From: a virus
IMG/VR virus record: IMGVR_UViG_3300036818_000107
Coordinates: 3,139 to 67,138 of that record
Length of the DNA: 64,000 bases
Strand: one strand, 5' to 3'
The position numbers were made by a program, and so were the translations under genes. Position 1 is the stretch's first letter. The number at the start of each line of letters is the position of its first letter. The notes below the pieces were generated by a model. The model searched no databases. It saw only the letters and a program-made list of their open reading frames with translations, and was not told where the DNA came from. Shown in pieces: positions 6,520 to 49,096 of this stretch.

Positions 6520-6604
6520 AGATGCATGACGGGTTTTACGGGATGTCAAAAAGTGACTTGAAAAGGTATTGACAATCATCTTGAATATATGTTATCATTC
6601 AAGA
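6520..6604 (+). promoter_or_regulatory. Cassette boundary motif, promoter and operator (cassette A)
   Basis: AGATGCATGACGGG at 6520; TTGACA(6569)-18-TATCAT with TG; inverted repeat TCTTGAAT/ATTCAAGA. Confidence 0.75.
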
Positions 6605-6642: not shown

Positions 6643-7242
6643 ATGAGAACCATCGAAACAGGGAAATACAAAGGCAAAACCCTAGCAAATTGTCCAGTAG
6701 AGTATCTGAAATGGGCAAGCAAGCATGAGCACGTTTATGCAAAGGGGAATCGGTGGGTCTCACAAGATGCGAAGTTCCTGCTCGAAAAGGAAGAGGTTGT
6801 TGTGATTGATCATGAAATTCCGTTCGGAAGATATCGCGGACAGAAGCTCAGTCAGCTTTCTCGTGATTATCTGGTCTGGATGCAAGATGCCGATTATAAT
6901 CCCAAGCCAATTATCCGCAATGGAGTGGATTGGACAGAGTTGGCAATCCAAGAGCTGGGCCGTCGCCGTCAGGCAGTCAGGCAAGAGATCGAAGAGTCTC
7001 TCAAAGTATTCTCCTATCTGCCTGATGAGAAGGGCGATAGGCTTACTGAGATCTTGGCAGATGAGTTGGTAAAATCAGGCGTTTCATTCAGCGGTTCCAA
7101 CGATGTTGAGAATATGCTGTTGAAAGCTGGATACAGAGGCATGGGAATACGTGTCGATCCTCTACAGATCTTTGTTCGTGCGTCTCTTATCAAAAAGGGG
7201 CAATTGCCTCAGTACAACGAGAAAGGCGATAGGGTAAATTAA
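6643..7242 (+). CDS. Protein with two DUF3820/QSregVF_b-like domains
   Basis: GKYKGKTL..CPVEYLKW and PFGRYRGQKL..LSRDYLVW. Confidence 0.7.
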   Translation: MRTIETGKYKGKTLANCPVEYLKWASKHEHVYAKGNRWVSQDAKFLLEKEEVVVIDHEIPFGRYRGQKLSQLSRDYLVWMQDADYNPKPIIRNGVDWTELAIQELGRRRQAVRQEIEESLKVFSYLPDEKGDRLTEILADELVKSGVSFSGSNDVENMLLKAGYRGMGIRVDPLQIFVRASLIKKGQLPQYNEKGDRVN

Positions 7243-7505: not shown

Positions 7506-7553
7506 TCCTAAGCTGCTAGACATCACGCTAGCAGCCCTCTTTTTTTCACCACA

Positions 7554-7668
7554 AGATGCATGACGGGCATGAACGACTTTCTAGCGAACTCTGGAATTGG
7601 TCTCTGAAAGCCTTGACAAGATATCTCAGATATCTTATACTTAGGACATCAGATGAGTATCTGAGATA
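7554..7668 (+). promoter_or_regulatory. Cassette boundary motif, promoter and operator (cassette B)
   Basis: Follows a terminator at 7512-7546. AGATGCATGACGGG at 7554; TTGACA(7613)-17-TATACT; palindrome AAGATATCTcAGATATCTT and inverted repeat TATCTCAGATA/TATCTGAGATA. Confidence 0.8.
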
Positions 7669-7691: not shown

Positions 7692-7883
7692 GTGGAAAAT
7701 ATTACAACGATTAGCAATGACCAGCTTTTTGAACAGTACCCCGGACTTCATGAGCAGGCAAGCGAGACTTTGACCGATGAAGTCAACTACCCAGCCGTTG
7801 AGAGTTGGCAGGTAGAAACGGACAGTCAAGGGAACGTTCAGGGTGTCTACAGTCCCAATTTTGCATCTTGGTACAGAGGATAA
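7692..7883 (+). CDS. Small acidic hypothetical protein
   Basis: GAGGT RBS, GTG start; D/E-rich with almost no basic residues. Confidence 0.7.
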   Translation: MENITTISNDQLFEQYPGLHEQASETLTDEVNYPAVESWQVETDSQGNVQGVYSPNFASWYRG

Positions 7884-7885
7884 TC

Positions 7886-8245
7886 ATGAAAGACATTCTT
7901 ATTCGTGATGTTCCTGATGAGGTAGTTGCTGCTCTATCTGAAAAGGCTAGAGCAGCCGACATGGATCGACAGGACTGGCTGCGGGAACATCTCAAAGAGC
8001 TAGCATCGCAGCCAGTCCTCAAAAAGCGCTATGTTCTCAAGGCATTTGGTCCTGAAGCGTCGTTTGCAACTATCCGCCGTCTTGAAGATAGCGCAGGTGG
8101 AGGCGCAAGCAACCTCGATCAAGAGCAAATGAGCGCTTACAATTTGGCTCAGGAGTTCGTCAAGCGCAATGCTCCCGGTGACAGGGAAGAAGCTATAGCT
8201 AAGCTCAAAGCTCATTTTGAGCAAGTTTTTGAAACAGTGATGTAA
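7886..8245 (+). CDS. Ribbon-helix-helix (FitA/Arc-like) regulator with C-terminal domain
   Basis: ILIRDVPDEVVAALSEKARAA..DWLREHL. Confidence 0.75.
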   Translation: MKDILIRDVPDEVVAALSEKARAADMDRQDWLREHLKELASQPVLKKRYVLKAFGPEASFATIRRLEDSAGGGASNLDQEQMSAYNLAQEFVKRNAPGDREEAIAKLKAHFEQVFETVM

Positions 8246-8279: not shown

Positions 8280-8594
8280 ATGGCTTATCCGTTTCCAGAC
8301 AATCTCCAGGAGGGCTACACGCCCTCTTTGTATGCTTCAGGCAAAGCATACAAAGATAATTGCCTCCATCGTTTCCCCACGGAGGGGAACAATGTGACAG
8401 TCCCTCGTAGAGAGTGGCCTCATTGGGCAGTTGAGGCAGAGTGGAAATCAGGCGAGCTGGAGCAAATTGGCCCGGAAGAATATAAAGTAATCTCAGAGAG
8501 ATATTCTTATTGGGAGCGCACGTACGGATCCCCTTCCAGTGGGACCAACCACTTTAAAAAGGGAACCATCCTCAGAACGAAGAATTATAGGTAG
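8280..8594 (+). CDS. Hypothetical protein
   Basis: AAGGAG RBS. Confidence 0.65.
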   Translation: MAYPFPDNLQEGYTPSLYASGKAYKDNCLHRFPTEGNNVTVPRREWPHWAVEAEWKSGELEQIGPEEYKVISERYSYWERTYGSPSSGTNHFKKGTILRTKNYR

Positions 8595-8734: not shown

Positions 8735-9529
8735 ATGTTATTTTTGTTGGGAGCAAATGATCCAGAAATGAGAAGGATTGAAGAAATCCTTCGTGAAAAT
8801 GGACACGAAGTCCGATATGCAGAAAAGGATGGCAAGCGCTGTCATCCTGGAAATGCCTATCAGTGTGATCCTGTAGAAAGTGCAATCTTGGTAGAGTGCG
8901 CATCTGCGGGCGTAAAAAATGCGCAGATTGATCATCATCGTCCTGGTGATACCGGCTACGGGCTTCCTGCCAACGAATTCTGGGAAGCCTCAAGCCTGGG
9001 GCAGCTTTGGAGATTCCTCCAACTGGAGGGCATAGCAGTATCTCCATCTCAGGATGATCTCATCCTTGCAGCTATGGATCATAGTCCAGCAGGTGCAATC
9101 AGAGGCGAGTGTCCTGGTGTGAGCGCTCAGGAGGTCCTAGAGCGCAAAATACAAGAGATTGCGCAAGGGACCAAATATGATGCGTGGGAAGTGCGCAATA
9201 AAGTCGGATATTATTTGGTCCGACTCATGGACGCACCTCCAATACAAATTGGGCAATCAGTAATTTCTGATCTTCGTAGTGAGTATCTTGGAGAGGGATA
9301 CTCAATCAATCTGCTGTCTGCGCAAGTAGCAGCTCTAGCAGATGGCTACACGGTCCTGCTCAGGCATAGAGATGCTGCTGGCAAGCCTGAGAAGTGGTCT
9401 ATTTCAGGGCATGCCACCCCTGAGTTGATCGAGGCTTTCAAGAGTGAGTGGGCTCCTGCCCAAGGTCTTATAGGGATATATGGTGTCCCCAATCGTGGGT
9501 ATGCAGGCGGGTACCTTCCAGAGGAGTAG
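8735..9529 (+). CDS. DHH-superfamily phosphoesterase, NrN-like
   Basis: FLLGANDPEM, LVEC, IDHH, SSLGQ, LAAMD, AQG and C-terminal GYAGG motifs in DHH order. Confidence 0.65.
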   Translation: MLFLLGANDPEMRRIEEILRENGHEVRYAEKDGKRCHPGNAYQCDPVESAILVECASAGVKNAQIDHHRPGDTGYGLPANEFWEASSLGQLWRFLQLEGIAVSPSQDDLILAAMDHSPAGAIRGECPGVSAQEVLERKIQEIAQGTKYDAWEVRNKVGYYLVRLMDAPPIQIGQSVISDLRSEYLGEGYSINLLSAQVAALADGYTVLLRHRDAAGKPEKWSISGHATPELIEAFKSEWAPAQGLIGIYGVPNRGYAGGYLPEE

Positions 9530-9531
9530 AA

Positions 9532-9726
9532 ATGTCAGATCTCATCTTGTCAGCTCGTAATAAGGGATTCTTGCGAGGAAAGAATGGCGAATCCCCTGAT
9601 CTCATCGATTTGGATGAAGATGAGAGGTATCAAACTCTCCATCCTCAAGATCGAACACAATATGAATACGGTATGAGAGATGGATATAATTCTCATCAAT
9701 TGGAGCAAAAGCAGCAACAAAAGTAG
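9532..9726 (+). CDS. Small hypothetical protein
   Basis: GAGGAG RBS; KGFLRG..YEYGMRDGY pattern; followed by a terminator at about 9747-9776. Confidence 0.6.
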   Translation: MSDLILSARNKGFLRGKNGESPDLIDLDEDERYQTLHPQDRTQYEYGMRDGYNSHQLEQKQQQK

Positions 9727-9868
9727 CCCACCACAACAACAATCAAGCCGCTTCCACAACGGACAGCGGCTTTTTCATGTCCTCAACTAGCTCAACCTTT
9801 TTGTTGTTGCCGCTGTGCTATAATGACATACATCGACACATTATGATGAGTAGTACAAAGGAGCATGT

Positions 9869-10078
9869 ATGCTGCGATCTTTCAACCGTTTCAACCAGCC
9901 AATGATTCCGCCAATGATGGAAGCCTACATCCACAACCGAGTTGGCAAGAGAGCTGCATTCCTGTCTGGGCAAATGTCCTTACAGCTCGAGATAGCCAAG
10001 AGTGAGCAACTCATTGGAATTGAGGAAAGGTACAGGAACGATCTGATAAAGAGGGCACAGAGGAAAAGACGCACATAG
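9869..10078 (+). CDS. Hypothetical protein (monocistronic cassette)
   Basis: TGCTATAAT extended -10, AAGGAG RBS, terminator at about 10100-10128. Confidence 0.65.
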   Translation: MLRSFNRFNQPMIPPMMEAYIHNRVGKRAAFLSGQMSLQLEIAKSEQLIGIEERYRNDLIKRAQRKRRT

Positions 10079-10140
10079 AGGCATGTAGAGGAATGAGTGA
10101 GGAGACCGCTGTTTGGTCTTCTTTTTTATGTCTGCTTGCA

Positions 10141-10219
10141 AGATGCATTATGGGCTTTAGAAGCTAACTTGAAATTGCCTCTTGAAATCGTTGACATCAT
10201 ACTACCAATATGCTATACT
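10141..10219 (+). promoter_or_regulatory. Cassette boundary motif and promoter (cassette D)
   Basis: AGATGCATTATGGG at 10141; TTGACA(10191)-17-TATACT with TG. Confidence 0.75.
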
Positions 10220-34973: not shown

Positions 34974-35448
34974 TGTCTATAGCCGCTGAGAGCCCCATGA
35001 GCAGTTCATTCTTGGCCTGCTCTGCCATCGTATTGATTTCTGTATGAATGTTAACCTCTGGCTGCTTATCCCTATACTCTGGCATGCGTGCCTTAGCCAT
35101 GAACTCAAGAAGCCGGTCACTGGGCTCAATCACCAGAGGTAACCTGCCCTCTACATCAATAGTCTTCCCTTTCATGGCACGTGTCCATATCTCAGCACGG
35201 ATCATATCGTTGGCATCTTCTTTCGCCTCGTTGTATCGAAATGAGAAGGTCTCATCATGCTCTTCCCACTGCCTGATTGTCGATCTGTCTATATTCGCCG
35301 TCATACATGCCGCTCTTACATTAGCTGTCATTGAAAAAGCTTTAAGAAACTTCTCTTGCGTTTCTAGCCTCTGTTGTTTTGTTAGCCTGTTTCCTGGGCT
35401 TCTTGCACTCGTTCGTACGTGATGTGATGGTTTGCGGGTATCAGGCAT
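34957..35448 (-). CDS. terS: Terminase small subunit
   Basis: HTH FLKAF..NVRAAC, SDRLLEF..PEYRD; directly upstream of terL. Confidence 0.85.
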   Translation of the reverse strand: MPDTRKPSHHVRTSARSPGNRLTKQQRLETQEKFLKAFSMTANVRAACMTANIDRSTIRQWEEHDETFSFRYNEAKEDANDMIRAEIWTRAMKGKTIDVEGRLPLVIEPSDRLLEFMAKARMPEYRDKQPEVNIHTEINTMAEQAKNELLMGLSAAIDNEDKD

Positions 35449-36820
35449 GGGTAGCCTCCTCTACACGGTCTAGGAGTGTGGCTTGTTGGTTGGTGAGTTG
35501 TTCCCACCTCGTGATACATACGTCAATGTAGGCAGGCGATAGCTCGCAACCGATGACTTTGCGCTCCCCTGATAGGTTCTCAGCAGCTATCACAGAGATA
35601 CCGGAGCCCAGGAAAGGATCAAAGATGATATCTTGCTCGGAGCCATATTTCTCAAATGCCCACTCTGCTAGCTTTATGGGCTTCTGCGATGGATGTACGC
35701 GTCTTTGCCCTTGTTCGCTTTCCTTCATTAAACCATTCCACATGTGTTTGAAGATGCGCACCGCGCTATCATCACTACACCACGCTAGCTCAGCATCGGC
35801 AAAGTTCCCTGTGTTCTCTTTATCCCATACAATCCAACAAGAGGAGTGAGGAAGAGCCTGCGCATAGTAGTTAGCGCCCCACCATATTTGTACAGCCTTT
35901 GGGAAAGACTCGAGGCATAGAGCAGAGGAAGCTATAGCCGTGTCTATGCTATCATCACCAACTATGGGAGCATACTTGCCAGCTTTTATCTTAGGAGCGA
36001 TCCTAAGATTATTTTTACTTCCTGGTGGATTTGCGCCTCCGATACTGCCTCTATCTGATTTGCTCCCAAAGGGCTTGGAACCACCGACGGTTCCAAGCCC
36101 TTTTCTATTCTTCACACCGCCAAAGGGGATATCATATGCCTCACCTCCACCAACGTATCCGTTGGTGGCAACGATATCAATGCCATATGGTGGATCACTC
36201 CAGACAAAATTTACATCAACATTCTTCAGAAGCTTTTCATACGTCTCTTTGTCAGTAGCATTCATACAAGCTATAGTGTGACGTCCCAGCTGCCATACAT
36301 CCCCCAGCTTTACCCGCGTCTGCTCTTCATCTGGCTCAGCTTCAAAATCGTCCTCTTCATCCTCACCTTCATTCCCGAGATACTCATCTCCCAAGCCCTC
36401 TAGCAGTTGCCTCAAATACTCATCATCCGTTCCAAGGCTTGCTAGATCAAACCCCGCGTCTTGTTGTTCTTGTAACAGCTCGGCCAGTGCCCTATCATCA
36501 TCTTGTGCTTCTTGACTATGCATGTTGTCTGCAATTAAGTAGCCAGAAATTTGCTCCTCAGTCCAATCAGCAGGGAGAATATCGGCTCTCAGCTCTGTGT
36601 AGCCTAGCTTTGTAGCGGCTTGCACAATCCCATGCCCTGCTACAATCAAATAGCCCTGTGGCCCATCCTGTACAACAATAGAGCGACCCTGGCCGAACCT
36701 CACAAGGCTGCTCACCAGCTTGGATACTTGCGCCTCTGGATGCTGACGGTAGTTTCTCGGGTGAGCATTCAGTTTATCCAATGGCACTATTCGATTTTGC
36801 TTCAGAGGGCTCTCACTCAT
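35441..36820 (-). CDS. ParB-like domain + N4/N6 DNA methyltransferase
   Basis: HPRNYRQH, IVAGHG, SDPPY, HPSQKP, DPFLGSG. Confidence 0.9.
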   Translation of the reverse strand: MSESPLKQNRIVPLDKLNAHPRNYRQHPEAQVSKLVSSLVRFGQGRSIVVQDGPQGYLIVAGHGIVQAATKLGYTELRADILPADWTEEQISGYLIADNMHSQEAQDDDRALAELLQEQQDAGFDLASLGTDDEYLRQLLEGLGDEYLGNEGEDEEDDFEAEPDEEQTRVKLGDVWQLGRHTIACMNATDKETYEKLLKNVDVNFVWSDPPYGIDIVATNGYVGGGEAYDIPFGGVKNRKGLGTVGGSKPFGSKSDRGSIGGANPPGSKNNLRIAPKIKAGKYAPIVGDDSIDTAIASSALCLESFPKAVQIWWGANYYAQALPHSSCWIVWDKENTGNFADAELAWCSDDSAVRIFKHMWNGLMKESEQGQRRVHPSQKPIKLAEWAFEKYGSEQDIIFDPFLGSGISVIAAENLSGERKVIGCELSPAYIDVCITRWEQLTNQQATLLDRVEEATHA

Positions 36821-44890: not shown

Positions 44891-45330
44891 GCTCCAAGCT
44901 CCTCTATGGGCAAGGTGTCGTTTAACACAGGTAGAAGGCTTTTTGTAAGCGTTAAGCTTCTTATACGATAAAGCCGTGATACATATTCTTTCTCTGTAAG
45001 CTCTTCATTTTCGTAAAAATGTTTATGGGCCTCTTCATTAACGGGAATAACGCGAAAAGCCCAAATATTAGGCCAGTAGATGGGGATGATGAATGGGAGC
45101 GGCCCCTCACTATATCCGTCTGCTAGTAAGGTTATGGCCTTGTATGATGGGTGTCTTAGATCAGGTTTTTGAGCCGTAAACCGTTTGTAGTCTGCAAGCA
45201 GCACGGGTTTCCCTGTGTTGTACTCAACGGCCAGAAAATCAAGATCTACCATTGGGCAATTAAATCCCCAGAGCCTATGACGTTCACTCAGCTCTTTGTC
45301 TCTCCATCCGGTTCGTTCGTTTGCGCTCAT
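44887..45330 (-). CDS. PD-(D/E)XK-like protein
   Basis: VDLDFL..LLADYK; coupled to the methyltransferase. Confidence 0.5.
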   Translation of the reverse strand: MSANERTGWRDKELSERHRLWGFNCPMVDLDFLAVEYNTGKPVLLADYKRFTAQKPDLRHPSYKAITLLADGYSEGPLPFIIPIYWPNIWAFRVIPVNEEAHKHFYENEELTEKEYVSRLYRIRSLTLTKSLLPVLNDTLPIEELGA

Positions 45331-46643
45331 GCTGTCACCCCACTCACCAAAGAGGCTTTTATTTCTTCTATAGTCACAATGCAGGTTTTGTCGATATCGC
45401 ATCCAACAAACTGGCGTTCCATCTCCATAGCAACAATTGCCGTTGTCCCACCACCAACGAATGGGTCACAGATGAGTTGACCAGTCTCGGTAAAGCGTTC
45501 AATGATATCTGCCATTCCGCTTTCAGACTGACCCCACTTGTGAAAGCGTTTATCATTTTGATTGACATCGCTCTTGCAGACATCACCAATCCACTGGCCT
45601 GTATATTCGCCCTTCACATACCACAAAAGTGGTTTCCAGAATGTATTGACATTTCTTTGCCAGAGCTGAGGGGATTGACCTCCTGGTGTGAGATAGCTCA
45701 GCATCCATTGGTAGCTCATCCGTTTACCTAGTTTCTCCATGATTTCAGGTAAGTAGGATTGCCCAACCATCGCAATAAGAGATCCGCCGGGCTTCAATGC
45801 GTAGGCAGCAAACGCGGCTAGATCGTCATAGACAGATAAAAATTCTCGAGGGTATGGTGGATCGGTGATAATATAATCAATGCTCTCTGGCTGTACATAC
45901 TGTGAAAGTTCGGAAACGCTACAATGATAGAGTTGACAGTGCTCTGCTCTGCTCACTGCTTCAAGGTAACGCTGGTGTCTCAATTCCTGCTGTCTTACTG
46001 CTTCCTCTTCTTCTTCCTTTTGCTTACGACGTGCATCTTTATCTTTTTGTTCGTATTTCTTCAGTAGTTTATGTGCTGCGTTAATGCTCTCATCATTCAG
46101 TGTCATTTTTAGGATGTCGCTACGTTCACTAAGTGCCTCATCCATGTACTGGACAATTTCTTTGCCCTTTTCGTAAGTCTTGCCGGAACCTAAACCGACA
46201 CGACGGGCTATAACGTCGCGAACGTCACTATCTGCAACTTCCCGGAAAATTTTCCGGGAAGTTGCATCTTTTTGCTTCCCCTGTCTCTTTTTTGCCTTTT
46301 CCTCTTCTATCGGTTCCCACGTCATTCCCTCTCTAATCTGCTGTTCTGGAGTTTTGCCCCTATTCTCGTTTTCCCGTAAAAGGCGTTCCATCTCAGCTTC
46401 TTCAGAGGCAAACTTCTCTATCACAACGGGAAGCTCTGTATAGCCTAGCCTCTTAGCTGCTTGATAGCGTCTATGACCACTAATAACCATGTACTCAGGA
46501 TTGACGGTAAGCGGCTTAATCCATCCAGACTCTTGAATGCTTTGCTGTAGAGCCGTGATATCCTCATCACCGTAGATCTCGACATTGCGAGGGTGTGGCT
46601 GTAAGAGTGAGATATCAATTTCTTGTGCTAATTCGACTGCCAT
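45327..46643 (-). CDS. ParB-like + HTH + DNA methyltransferase
   Basis: LQPHPRN, ISGHRR, ITDPPY, DPFVGGGT. Confidence 0.9.
   Translation of the reverse strand: MAVELAQEIDISLLQPHPRNVEIYGDEDITALQQSIQESGWIKPLTVNPEYMVISGHRRYQAAKRLGYTELPVVIEKFASEEAEMERLLRENENRGKTPEQQIREGMTWEPIEEEKAKKRQGKQKDATSRKIFREVADSDVRDVIARRVGLGSGKTYEKGKEIVQYMDEALSERSDILKMTLNDESINAAHKLLKKYEQKDKDARRKQKEEEEEAVRQQELRHQRYLEAVSRAEHCQLYHCSVSELSQYVQPESIDYIITDPPYPREFLSVYDDLAAFAAYALKPGGSLIAMVGQSYLPEIMEKLGKRMSYQWMLSYLTPGGQSPQLWQRNVNTFWKPLLWYVKGEYTGQWIGDVCKSDVNQNDKRFHKWGQSESGMADIIERFTETGQLICDPFVGGGTTAIVAMEMERQFVGCDIDKTCIVTIEEIKASLVSGVTA
46233..46266. repeat. Perfect 34-bp palindrome (parS-like)
   Basis: TGCAACTTCCCGGAAAATTTTCCGGGAAGTTGCA. 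Confidence 0.9.
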
Positions 46644-46644
46644 G

Positions 46645-49096
46645 CTAATTTCCTTCTTTCGTGTCTTCTGTTTTACTGCTGTCAATAACCTGTTTTATCT
46701 TGTCCGCTTCCACCACCTTGGGTACACCCAGACTCTTTCTCAGCTCTTGCAAGCTCAGCTCGAAGAGTTGGTCGAGCGTCAAGTGTTGTACCTCTTTTGC
46801 TTCTAATGGTTCATGGATAGTAGCATGTGCCCTCTTCTGTGCATCTTGCTCCTGTATGTTCGATTGGTCGGTCATTTGTCTTCCATCTCCTTTTCAGCTC
46901 TAGATAGGCGAGAAACGCTCTAGCTTCTTGTGTGTAGTTCATGCTTGTCTTACCCATTCGATAAGGTATGCTGCATACAGCGGGTGATATATGCAAAGAT
47001 GCCTAAACCATACTTTATCTGAAACATATACTATTGTTAGGTCTGTGCCTGTTGTGTAGTTCATACTGTTATCTCCTCATCCAAACGGGACAAATGACAG
47101 TGCGTAGCTAAATGCTATAATTGACACAACAAATACGATGATGTGTGCTAGTGCATATATGTCGTGTTTAGTTCTCATGATGTTGCCTCCTGTATTGTTT
47201 GTGGTATCTCAAAATGCAGGTTCATGAAAGTTACTCCGCCTGGCAGGAAGGCCATGATTGCAAGCACACGTGTAAGCCGATTGATCATCTCTTTTGAGTT
47301 GCCTCTGTCCTTCTTCCGATCTGGCGCGTACATCAGGTCCTCACATGGTGGGCCTGCGAGCATATCTCCGTACTGCTTTGCGTAGTCGAGATGTTCCTGG
47401 CTGATGCCACCAATTTTCTTGATGTCATGGATGCGCAGTGGGACGAGTGTCTCGACAAAAAGAGGCATCATCATAAATGCGGTCTCTTCACTCATTTGCA
47501 TCTCCTGGCATCAAATCTTGCATACACAGCTCTCGCTGGTTGCCTATCCTTATCGTGAAAAGAGCCCAGAGTGCCATAGTGCATATCACGCATATAGGCC
47601 AGTATGTGAGCATTGCGCTCACAATGTCGAGTAACCATGCTACTACAACATAATCCGGTATCATAGCATCCACCTGTTCTCATCCTTGTCACGCAGCTCT
47701 CGTTCCTGCTCGACTTGTAGGATGTATGGGAGTAGAGGGATTGCTAGCTTCTGCAATACCAAGAACTCTATGTCTGCTGCTGTTGTGTGGATTGAGGCAA
47801 GCTGTACCATGCGTGCATCTATGGCACGGGCTAGAGCTAGGGACGCTTCTGGACTACAGCACTCTAGTGTAGTGGTGATGTCTGTGGTGTTCATGGCCGC
47901 CAACCCTTCATAGTCTCGCTAGCGCGTCTGTCGTACTGGATGCCGATGTCTGTAGCCTTCATGCCGGGGAACTTGCCCTCGTAGTCCTTAGAGAGTTGCT
48001 CAGCCTCATCAATTAATGCCTGCTGAAACTCTTCCAGTGTGAATACGCCTCTCTCTATGAGCAATCTTGTGAGGACAGAGGAGCCAGCTCGCAAGAGGAC
48101 AGTCGTCGCCCGATGGTCGCATATAGCCTGATAGGTGGGATCATCAGGGGAGAGCACAGAAACGTCATTCATTGGCAATGAAGGGACTTCTTTTTGCTCT
48201 GCTTGGACTCTTTGTTCGAACTCTTCTAGGGTAAAGACGTGCTTATTGAGCAGCAATTGTATGAATGCAGAGTTCTCTGCTGTAAGGAGAATGGTAACCT
48301 CTCTGTGGTCTCGTATGGCATCCCCCTCAGGATTGCCTTTTACACGTGTGCCTAGCTGCCAAGAAGCAAATACACTTCTCCATTTAGTAAGCTTGTTGAG
48401 TGCGTTATAGCATCGCTGTGCTAAGTCGTTTGTGTTATTTTGCATGTCTATCCACCTCTATCAATGTATACTGTTCCCACTTCTCTAGTGTGTCTCGCAT
48501 GAGAAGGCCGTCAACACACATCAAATCTTGCTCTTTCAGCATTTGGCACCACTTGCACGATGCGAAGTGCTTGCTGATCTCGATCTTGATGAGGCTGCAG
48601 AGTCGGGTAGCCTCACCGGGCGTGATACGGTCGTGCTCTGCTGTGGGCTCTGTAGCCTTTGGAGCAGGCAGAGCAGTCGCTTGGAAGGTGACCGTGTAGG
48701 GGGTTGGCTTGCAGTCGTGATAAGAGTCGAGTCGTGATCCGTACACGGGACGGCCACAGTGACGACAATCATGCAGATATTTCATACGGCTACCTCCCGT
48801 GGCGCTAGCTCTACAAAGACAATCCTGTGTCGATTGTGTGTGACCTGCTCGAGTTTGATCAGCTTTGCCTCTTGCAGCTTGGTGAGGTCGGACATCGCGA
48901 CGGGAAAGGCCACCACATCGGCTACGTGCTGCAAGAGGTCGCCTGTGACGATAGAGCAACCGTATCGGATGTATGAGTCACACCATAGGCACTCAGAGGC
49001 TTTGTGGTGCGATTTCAAAGCGTAGTAGAGCTTGCGAGGCTTGAGATTGCTTGGCCCTGGCAGGTGATTGTGCGCAAATCTGGACGATTCACTCAT
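46645..49096 (-). CDS. Run of small hypothetical genes (46645, 47175, 47488, 47661, 47891, 48435, 48782)
   Basis: Coupled ORFs with RBSs. 47891..48445 has an internal duplication (DHRE/AT..LL.A.xS..LL..VFTLEEF twice). Confidence 0.6.

What the first reader, a model, noticed from the sequence alone, without database searches (positions are those of the whole stretch)
8735..9529. Phage-encoded NrN-like DHH phosphodiesterase: candidate eraser of immune second messengers
The motif order FLLGxxDxEM / VE / IDHH / SSLxQ / LxAAxD / AQG / terminal G-rich motif matches my recollection of NrN. NrN is the DHH enzyme that degrades SAM-AMP in CorA-associated type III CRISPR systems. Here it is far from any cas gene, inside an RHH-regulated early cassette. 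Inference: an anti-CRISPR or anti-CBASS enzyme captured from the host off-switch. The similarity is from memory, not from an alignment.
Basis: partly seen in the sequence, partly recalled or inferred. Interest (0 to 1): 0.82.

Follow-up and report, generated by a model that had tools for sequence, protein, structure and literature searches.

The report
Phage-borne sister family of NrN phosphodiesterase
A phage gene encodes an apparently active enzyme that is a distant but genuine relative of NrN, the bacterial enzyme that destroys the CRISPR alarm molecule SAM-AMP, so it may help phages silence an immune signal, though its real substrate is unknown.

Summary
No Pfam, PHROG or NCBIfam model names it. 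A profile of 38 homologues has crystallised NrN as its best PDB hit (E 9.5e-4). The AlphaFold model (pLDDT 96.3) has the four NrN entries as its top Foldseek hits (E 1e-6 to 1e-5). hhalign against 34 true NrN proteins gives 98% probability, E 1.5e-13, over residues 1-237. The catalytic residues are invariant.

It is not a member of the NrN family proper. It belongs to a large unnamed sister family of 1553 clusters at 50% identity. That family is separated from NrN by a long branch and lacks most NrN-only invariant residues. It is never next to CorA or Cas10. It occurs on 31 viral contigs and sporadically in bacterial MAGs.

The window is a 67-kb tailed-phage record. The gene sits in a cassette with its own promoter and terminator, together with a ribbon-helix-helix gene.

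A role in erasing an immune signal is plausible but untested, and SAM-AMP specificity is doubtful. The idea of recent capture from a host off-switch is not supported. The scan had not noted this family on other DNA.

The parts
8735..9529 (+). NrN-like DHH/DHHA1 phosphodiesterase gene (264 aa). The DHH domain covers about residues 1-125 and the DHHA1-like domain about 143-264.
7512..7535 (+). Terminator-like hairpin that closes the preceding cassette
7554..7567 (+). Boundary motif AGATGCATGACGGG. It has three copies in the window (6520, 7554, 10141); 0.11 are expected by chance.
7613..7641 (+). Sigma-70-like promoter TTGACA-17-TATACT (11 of 12 matches). The palindrome GATATCTCAGATATC lies in its spacer.
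   Evidence: sequence read
7692..7883 (+). First gene of the cassette, 63 aa, unknown. It was not scanned against family libraries.
7887..8245 (+). Putative ribbon-helix-helix DNA-binding protein (about 119 aa from the ATG at 7887). The call is weak.
   Evidence: FitA-like_RHH E 3.4e-4, below the cut-off; start read
8280..8594 (+). 104-aa gene of unknown function directly upstream
   Evidence: no family
9532..9726 (+). 64-aa gene. Its ATG lies two bases after the NrN-like stop codon and its GGAGGAG ribosome site lies inside the end of the NrN-like gene, so the two are probably co-translated.
   Evidence: no family
9748..9776 (+). GC-rich hairpin (GCCGCT ... AGCGGC) followed by TTTTT. It is a possible internal terminator; its 12-nt loop is outside the scanner's rule.
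   Evidence: Read from the sequence (inference)
9869..10078 (+). 69-aa gene of unknown function, the last before the cassette terminator
10099..10123 (+). Terminator-like hairpin that closes the cassette. The next boundary motif is at 10141 and the next promoter at 10191.

Best explanation
The gene encodes a catalytically intact, compact two-domain DHH/DHHA1 phosphodiesterase. It belongs to a large, unnamed, mobile sister family of the CRISPR-associated SAM-AMP phosphodiesterase NrN. The phage expresses it from a self-contained cassette with a strong promoter and a terminator, together with a small putative ribbon-helix-helix regulator and three to four tiny unknown genes. The most likely role is hydrolysis of a small nucleotide-containing phosphodiester made by the host during infection. 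That could be SAM-AMP or another adenylate conjugate or short oligonucleotide messenger, and removing it would blunt signal-dependent immunity. What is shown: the fold, full-length homology to NrN, conservation of the metal and catalytic residues, the phage location, the cassette anatomy, and the absence of any link to CRISPR or CorA. What is inferred: that the enzyme is active, what its substrate is, and that the benefit to the phage is counter-defence.
For: Fold and homology. The AF2 model has pLDDT 96.3 and pTM 0.89. The four top Foldseek PDB hits are NrN crystal entries (TM 0.49-0.57), followed by family II pyrophosphatases, PPX1, PggH and RecJ2. hhalign of A1 against A2 gives 98.0% probability and E 1.5e-13. 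The only PADLOC models that family members match are DHH_CorA and C3a116 (P0089 at 1.4e-5 and 7.7e-6). Atlas structure rows match residues 130/143-264 to DHHA1-domain clusters at low TM (0.27-0.35, a lead only).

Active site. D9, E11, E54, D66, H67, H68 and D115 are invariant in 38 of 38 family members. They align with NrN D13, E15, E61, D76-H77-H78 and D110. The PDB variants E21A and D119A and the published dead variant D85A/H86A/H87A (PMC10600005, passages read) fall on these columns.

Mobility. The family is on 31 IMG/VR loci, including records of 148-327 kb. Only 1 of 301 genomes in the class of G002 has it, and that one is the centre genome itself. There is no conserved neighbour. Virus and cell labels interleave on the tree, with 10 changes.

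Cassette. It runs terminator, motif, 11-of-12 promoter, genes, terminator.

Precedent. A phage SAM-AMP lyase has been proposed as AcrIIIB4 (PMC12255297, passages read).
Against: No activity or substrate has been tested. Most residues that are invariant only in NrN are not kept: W37, N79, N109, Y113-I114-P115, R131, D134-R135, Q138-G139, E145, F171, D176-R177. The family instead has its own invariant positions (C55, H116, C126-P127, G188-Y189, P252, R254) and a roughly 16-residue insertion, so the substrate may differ.

The host is unknown, so it is unknown whether it signals with SAM-AMP. In E. coli, NrN activity is required for CorA immunity rather than only switching it off, so a phage PDE need not abolish that immunity.

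In three Patescibacteria genomes the gene lies among housekeeping genes (IF-2, ClpB, class V aminotransferase), and 0 of 5 carrier genomes has Cmr2. That fits a role unrelated to CRISPR.

Of 117 neighbouring ORFs from the 25 viral loci whose family ORF my caller recovered (of 31), none gave a recognised anti-defence family among the 25 of 64 matched families that were shown.
Confidence: 0.4

Rival explanations
1. Nucleotide salvage. The enzyme is a nanoRNase, pAp phosphatase or dinucleotidase of the NrnA type. It would finish the breakdown of host RNA or DNA fragments to mononucleotides for phage replication.
For: The generic DHH/DHHA1 fold matches PggH, RecJ2 and family II pyrophosphatases. 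Other phages and giant viruses carry canonical DHH phosphohydrolases. Viral neighbours include replication and recombination genes such as DnaB, AAA_24, DUF669 and UvrD. Copies in Patescibacteria lie among housekeeping genes.
Against: The closest relative, NrN, does not cut pApA or cA2-6 (PMC10600005). The family is sporadic rather than core: 1 of 301 genomes in one class. In the window the gene is in a moron-like cassette next to a regulator, not in the replication module around 41-56 kb.
Confidence: 0.28
2. Manipulation of host signalling rather than of immunity. The enzyme would degrade a housekeeping messenger or its linear product (c-di-AMP or c-di-GMP, pApA or pGpG), or act as a lysogenic-conversion moron that changes host physiology.
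For: GdpP and PggH, which are DHH/DHHA1 enzymes of those pathways, are named in the literature as structural matches of NrN, and PggH appears. The gene has its own promoter and terminator, the classical moron layout.
Against: No integrase or repressor was identified in the ORFs scanned, so lysogeny is unproven. NrN itself is inactive on these substrates.
Confidence: 0.15
3. Strict functional orthologue of NrN. The enzyme would be a SAM-AMP-specific phosphodiesterase used as an anti-CRISPR against CorA-type III systems.
For: NrN is the best hit by sequence profile and by structure. The two share the unusual D-x-E and E variants of DHH motifs I and II and the Gly-rich C-terminal motif. There is precedent in a phage SAM-AMP lyase.
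Against: NrN-only invariant residues are largely replaced. The clade is deep and separate. The host is unknown. NrN is needed for immunity in the only system tested.
Confidence: 0.17

Closest known systems
NrN, the CorA-associated DHH phosphodiesterase of type III-B CRISPR (Bacteroides fragilis; PDB 9lq9, 9lqa, 9lqb, 9lqc; PADLOC DHH_CorA PDLC01149)
   Same: Compact DHH plus DHHA1-like protein of about 250-265 aa. Homology extends over almost the full length (hhalign 98%). Twenty-two conserved positions are shared, including D-x-E-M, Y, E, DHH, Q, AA-x-D and the G-rich C-terminus. It is the best structural match.
   Different: Identity is about 16-18% in the structural alignments and 23% in the profile alignment. 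The family forms a separate clade. NrN-only invariant residues are lost, family-specific Cys and His positions are gained, and there is a 16-residue insertion. The family is never adjacent to CorA or Cmr2: 0 of 5 carrier genomes have Cmr2, against 3 of 3 true-NrN genomes with Cmr2 within 5 kb. It is found on viral contigs, where true NrN was not found.
[quoted passage not shown]
   Same: A phage-encoded relative of a CRISPR-locus enzyme that removes SAM-AMP. It is the conceptual precedent for erasing this messenger.
   Different: It has an unrelated fold (trimeric PII-like lyase) and different chemistry (lyase, not hydrolase). Its activity on SAM-AMP has been shown in vitro; here no activity has been shown.
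NrnA, GdpP and PggH, the DHH/DHHA1 phosphodiesterases (for example PDB 7d62)
   Same: Same superfamily and two-domain logic, with a DHH metal centre.
   Different: They are larger (about 300-320 aa) and have canonical DxD and GGGH motifs. Structural similarity is much weaker (E about 1e-3, TM 0.40). Pfam DHH matches 1 of 38 family members, at E 0.03.
Viral signal-degrading enzymes in general (AcrIII-1 ring nuclease, Acb1 2H phosphodiesterase). These names are recalled; only the review passages were seen.
   Same: The proposed logic is the same: a virus hydrolyses the host's immune messenger.
   Different: Their folds are unrelated, and their substrates and in vivo effects have been demonstrated.

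Membership tests
DHH/DHHA1 phosphoesterase superfamily | Two-domain DHH plus DHHA1 fold | tested here: met
   The AF2 model (pLDDT 96.3) matches NrN, family II PPases, PPX1, PggH and RecJ2. Atlas rows match residues 130/143-264 to DHHA1-domain clusters at TM 0.27-0.35, and RecJ at TM 0.61 by query.
DHH/DHHA1 phosphoesterase superfamily | Metal-binding motifs I-IV, including DHH | tested here: met
   D9, E11, E54, D66-H67-H68 and D115 are invariant in 38 of 38 sequences. Motifs I and II are the D-x-E and E variants, as in NrN.
DHH/DHHA1 phosphoesterase superfamily | Recognition by the Pfam DHH (PF01368) or DHHA1 (PF02272) models | tested here: not met
   The window protein has no match. One of 38 family members matches DHH, at E 0.03.
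NrN (CorA-associated DHH PDE) | Significant match to the family model or the crystallised protein | tested here: inconclusive
   At profile level the answer is yes (E 9.5e-4 against PDB NrN; hhalign E 1.5e-13). The window protein alone is not listed for DHH_CorA up to E 1 in the library scan and matches only 27 positions at E 0.00365, 12.4 bits. Pairwise BLASTP against L080 NrN gives E 0.001 over 75 residues.
NrN (CorA-associated DHH PDE) | Gene adjacent to or fused with corA inside a type III CRISPR locus | tested here: not met
   No CorA match in the phage record. No conserved neighbour across the fetched family loci. Cmr2 is found in 0 of 5 carrier genomes, against 3 of 3 true-NrN genomes. 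One true NrN is fused to CorA.
NrN (CorA-associated DHH PDE) | Family-specific invariant residues outside the catalytic core (W37, N79, N109, Y113-I-P115, R131, D134-R135, Q138-G139, E145, F171, D176-R177 in L080 numbering) | tested here: not met
   In the merged alignment of 38 plus 34 sequences these columns hold other residues or are variable in the phage family.
NrN (CorA-associated DHH PDE) | Placement inside the NrN clade on a tree | tested here: not met
   On a FastTree of 55 rows, the 6 NrN rows and the 49 family rows lie on opposite sides of a branch with support 100. This is a quick tree with a small outgroup.
NrN (CorA-associated DHH PDE) | [quoted passage not shown] | not testable with these tools
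   This is a biochemical assay. The paper describing the NrN structures and their ligand contacts is not in the library.
Anti-CRISPR / anti-defence protein | Demonstrated inhibition of a defence system, or adjacency to known acr or aca genes | tested here: inconclusive
   The cassette holds a weak RHH candidate and has a strong promoter, which resembles acr-aca layouts. No known anti-defence family appeared among the shown Pfam families of 117 viral neighbours. No function has been tested.

The most novel reading that the evidence does not exclude
This family is a large, unnamed sister family of NrN (1553 clusters at 50% identity). It is carried by phages, including jumbo phages, and scattered by transfer through Patescibacteria and other bacteria. 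Under the most novel reading it is a class of viral phosphodiesterases that erase SAM-AMP or a still undiscovered nucleotide-conjugate immune messenger. That would make it the first hydrolase-type anti-CRISPR against CorA-type signalling, and a probe for finding where such messengers are used outside known CRISPR loci.
Probability: 0.22. Interest if true: 0.82.

Novelty: new variant of a known kind. Interest (0 to 1): 0.6.

Why it matters
SAM-AMP signalling was described only in 2023. Its turnover enzymes are still puzzling, because NrN is needed for immunity and is not just an off-switch. The only proposed viral counter-measure so far is a lyase. A well-conserved, apparently active, mobile and virus-enriched sister family of NrN gives a directly testable candidate for a second counter-measure based on a phosphodiesterase. 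If its substrate is not SAM-AMP, it points instead to another small phosphodiester signal. The family has no Pfam, PHROG or NCBIfam model and about 1,300 clusters at E <= 1e-10, so defining it would also annotate many hypothetical proteins in phage and candidate-phyla genomes.

Tried and rejected
Single-sequence searches of Pfam, PHROGs, NCBIfam and the PDB gave nothing useful. tblastn found no member of the family in 50,697 GenBank phage records.

Fusion partners. The 'longer' search found only two long forms (476 and 544 aa). Nine long or extended forms had no Pfam domain, so there is no Rosetta-stone clue.

Conserved neighbours. All-against-all BLASTP of 1,182 ORFs from the loci found no neighbour family shared widely. 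The top cluster apart from the family itself was an artefact. In GC-rich loci my crude ORF caller picked antisense frames over the gene, so L003, L004, L017, L019, L022 and L030 had no called family ORF and were left out of the neighbour set. I also removed the 12 ORFs of L032 (identical family ORF to L016) and the last 4 of L028 (duplicates of L027) from the printed list of 129, leaving 117.

Tree rows. Matches covering fewer than 200 query residues were dropped before the tree. Loci whose family ORF my caller missed were absent as well.

A trio of loci (L033, L035, L040) shares three neighbour families. The three L035 neighbours I tested, two of them from those shared families, have no PDB homologue.

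Host inference failed. There are no tRNAs. The portal protein is only 20-28% identical to those of isolated phages with varied hosts. The major head protein was not found in 301 genomes of the class of G002. The endolysin has no relative in IMG/VR.

Using the alignment would have been the better choice.

I rejected recent capture of NrN by the phage because of the deep divergence and because the A2 patterns found no NrN on viral contigs (only two peptide patterns were used, so this is weak negative evidence).

The paper behind PDB 9lq9-9lqc was not found in the library, so the SAM-AMP contact residues are unknown to me. No paper in the library describes a phage NrN-like phosphodiesterase (listings and abstracts only, except for the passages read). 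Supplementary files were not opened. The supplements of PMC10600005 and PMC12255297 may hold NrN alignments that bear on specificity.

Full report
**1. The observation**

The ORF listing shows an ATG-started ORF at 8735..9529 on the + strand, 264 aa. On its own the sequence matches nothing meaningful in Pfam, PHROGs, NCBIfam or PDB sequences.

**2. Is it NrN-like?**

A word-indexed search found 353 proteins at E <= 1e-3. All lack Pfam domains, and those that carry a name are called 'hypothetical'. I aligned 38 of them as A1. The invariant residues include G6, D9, E11, Y42, E54, D66, H67, H68, Q90, A112, A113, D115, H116, P252, R254 and G259.

Several independent lines then point to NrN:
- The A1 profile against all PDB sequences gives three NrN sequences (entries 9lq9, 9lqc and 9lqa/9lqb) as its best hits, the best at E 9.5e-4. 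The next hit is at E 1.3.
- The AlphaFold2 model built on A1 is very confident (pLDDT 96.3, pTM 0.89).
- Foldseek against the PDB ranks the four NrN crystal entries first (E 1.3e-6 to 1.4e-5, TM 0.49-0.57). Other DHH-superfamily proteins follow at E >= 6.7e-4: family II pyrophosphatases, PPX1, PggH, RecJ2 and Cdc45.
- In PADLOC the only models matched by five family members are DHH_CorA and C3a116. P0089 reaches 1.4e-5 and 7.7e-6; the window protein reaches only 0.048, to C3a116.
- The ESM Atlas structure search matches residues 130/143-264 to DHHA1-domain clusters at low TM (0.27-0.35, a lead only), and the whole model matches RecJ at TM 0.61 by query.

To compare with true NrN, I searched 401 genomes of one phylum with the PADLOC DHH_CorA model. 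Three had a match. One of them, L080 (251 aa), matches crystallised NrN at E 3.9e-55 over its full length. Another is in the same 763-aa frame as a CorA match, so it is an NrN-CorA fusion.

I aligned L080 and 33 of its homologues as A2. hhalign of A1 against A2 gives probability 98.0%, E 1.5e-13, 204 aligned columns, covering residues 1-237.

A merged alignment shows 22 positions conserved at >= 85% in both families. They are F3, L5, G6, D9, E11, M12, L19, Y42, E54, D66, H67, H68, Q90, L95, A112, A113, D115, G128, G225, G250, G255 and G258. So the similarity runs through both domains, including the Gly-rich C-terminal motif.

The PDB variants E21A and D119A, and the published inactive D85A/H86A/H87A variant (PMC10600005, passages read), map to our E11, D115 and D66-H68. 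The observation and the 'NrN-like DHH' part of the interpretation are therefore confirmed.

**3. It is not a member of the NrN family proper**

On a FastTree of 55 rows, the 49 family rows and the 6 NrN rows sit on either side of a long branch with support 100.

Positions that are invariant only in NrN are not kept: W37, N79, N109, Y113-I114-P115, R131, D134-R135, Q138-G139, E145, F171, D176-R177. The phage family has its own near-invariant positions (P10, C55, D72, G74, S86-S87, G89, H116, C126-P127, G186/G188-Y189-S190, Q197, P252, R254) and a roughly 16-residue insertion that NrN lacks. These differences lie outside the metal centre, where substrate recognition would be expected. That last point is my inference, because the structural paper was not in the library.

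The genomic context also differs:
- All 3 genomes with true NrN have a Cmr2/Cas10 match within 5 kb of it.
- None of 5 genomes that carry the new family has any Cmr2 match.
- The phage record has no CorA match.
- No neighbour family is shared widely among the loci.

**4. The family**

An exhaustive profile search of 1.84 billion representatives finds 1553 clusters at E <= 1e-3, 1313 at <= 1e-10 and 967 at <= 1e-30. Almost all are stand-alone proteins of about 260-330 aa. The word-indexed search of longer proteins found only two long forms, without Pfam domains.

Pattern scans found the family on 31 IMG/VR contigs, including records of 327, 243, 191, 185, 170 and 149 kb. They also found it on 43 contigs of GTDB species genomes. 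Many of these are Patescibacteria (Saccharibacteria, Parcubacteria, Kaiserbacteria). Others are labelled Bdellovibrionales, Pseudomonadota, Myxococcota, Actinomycetota and so on, and one is an Azorhizophilus paspali isolate.

The family is sporadic. In the class of one Saccharibacteria carrier, only that genome among 301 has it. In three Patescibacteria genomes the neighbours are ordinary chromosomal genes such as IF-2, class V aminotransferase, ClpB and an AMP-binding enzyme. Some 'cellular' loci share neighbours with viral loci, and L073 shares many neighbour families with the viral locus L026 on a contig of the same length.

Virus and cell labels interleave on the tree, with 10 changes. No member was found in 50,697 GenBank phage records. 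BFVD holds only distant canonical DHH proteins. True NrN was not found on viral contigs with the two patterns used.

**5. The window context**

The window is bases 3139-67138 of a 67,138-bp IMG/VR virus record, estimated 91% complete. It encodes:
- large terminase, portal, protease, major head protein, tape measure protein and an amidase endolysin;
- DnaB, a Rad52-type annealase and one ParB_N-methyltransferase fusion, plus a second such fusion.

The gene lies in a + strand block of small genes. I checked this. AGATGCATKAYGGG occurs three times, at 6520, 7554 and 10141, where 0.11 copies are expected by chance. Each copy follows a terminator-like hairpin and precedes an 11-of-12 sigma-70-like promoter.

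The cassette that holds the gene runs as follows:
- promoter at 7613-7641, with the palindrome GATATCTCAGATATC in its spacer;
- a 63-aa gene;
- a putative ribbon-helix-helix gene at 7887-8245, which is only a weak match (E 3.4e-4, below Pfam's cut-off);
- a 104-aa gene;
- the NrN-like gene;
- a 64-aa gene whose ATG lies two bases after the NrN-like stop codon;
- possibly an internal hairpin terminator near 9748-9776;
- a 69-aa gene;
- the terminator at 10099-10123.

This is the layout of a phage moron or accessory cassette, and it resembles acr-aca operons. That resemblance is only suggestive.

**6. Mechanism**

The intact metal and catalytic set makes an active phosphodiesterase very likely; I put this at about 0.9. 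What it cuts is not known.

Points in favour of a counter-defence role:
- its nearest characterised relative is a messenger-specific enzyme that ignores pApA and cA2-6;
- the family is mobile and virus-enriched;
- it sits in an accessory cassette;
- a phage SAM-AMP lyase provides a precedent.

Points against, or cautions:
- the likely specificity residues have diverged;
- the host is unknown;
- some copies lie in chromosomal housekeeping contexts in Patescibacteria;
- no recognised anti-defence genes appeared among the 25 of 64 Pfam families shown for the viral neighbours;
- in the only system tested, NrN activity is required for CorA immunity.

My estimates are about 0.4 for 'erases some immune nucleotide messenger', of which SAM-AMP specifically is about 0.17-0.22. 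Nucleotide salvage is about 0.28 and manipulation of housekeeping signalling about 0.15.

**7. Novelty and verdict**

In the papers I could search, none describes a phage NrN-like phosphodiesterase. The idea of erasing immune messengers is established, and the fold is known. I therefore rate this a new variant of a known kind: an unnamed, large, mobile sister family of NrN. Interest is 0.6. It is a sound and directly testable lead, but its substrate and its benefit to the phage are still inferred.

Noticed in passing
window 6520-6533, 7554-7567, 10141-10154, with promoters at 6569-6598, 7613-7641 and 10191-10219: There are three copies of AGATGCATKAYGGG (0.11 expected by chance). Each follows a terminator-like hairpin and precedes an 11-of-12 sigma-70-like promoter, which marks three independent accessory cassettes.
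   Followed up: partly
window 7619-7634 and about 7648-7662: A perfect palindrome, GATATCTCAGATATC, lies in the promoter spacer, and a related inverted copy (TATCTGAGATA) lies just downstream. These are candidate operators for the cassette's RHH protein.
   Followed up: no
window 35441-36820 (-) and 45327-46685 (-): Two separate fusions of a ParB N-terminal domain to a DNA methyltransferase occur in one phage genome.
   Followed up: no
window 6643-7242 (+): A 199-aa protein carries two QSregVF_b repeats (Pfam E 1e-13) in the neighbouring cassette. Its function is unknown.
   Followed up: no
L041, L044, L034 (Patescibacteria genome contigs): Family members sit as single genes among housekeeping genes (IF-2, ClpB, class V aminotransferase). 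Yet only 1 of 301 genomes of one such class carries the gene. This looks like single-gene transfer into tiny genomes.
   Followed up: partly
L033, L035, L040: Three loci labelled Bdellovibrionales or Rhodospirillaceae share the family gene plus three neighbour families. The three L035 neighbours I tested (445, 307 and 699 aa), two of them from those shared families, have no PDB sequence homologue. This may be a small conserved mobile module.
   Followed up: partly
L057:8001-8777: A 32%-identical family member lies in the genome of a cultured strain, Azorhizophilus paspali (record title). It could serve as an experimental handle. Its neighbourhood was not resolved.
   Followed up: partly
L079 (G282:C1:1074905-1077109): A true NrN is fused to CorA in one 763-aa frame, with Cmr2 about 1.5 kb downstream. 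This fusion type is already known from the literature.
   Followed up: yes
window 1-64000: There are no tRNA genes, and no close relative among isolated phages: portal identity is at most 28%. The phage is a singleton with an unknown host.
   Followed up: partly
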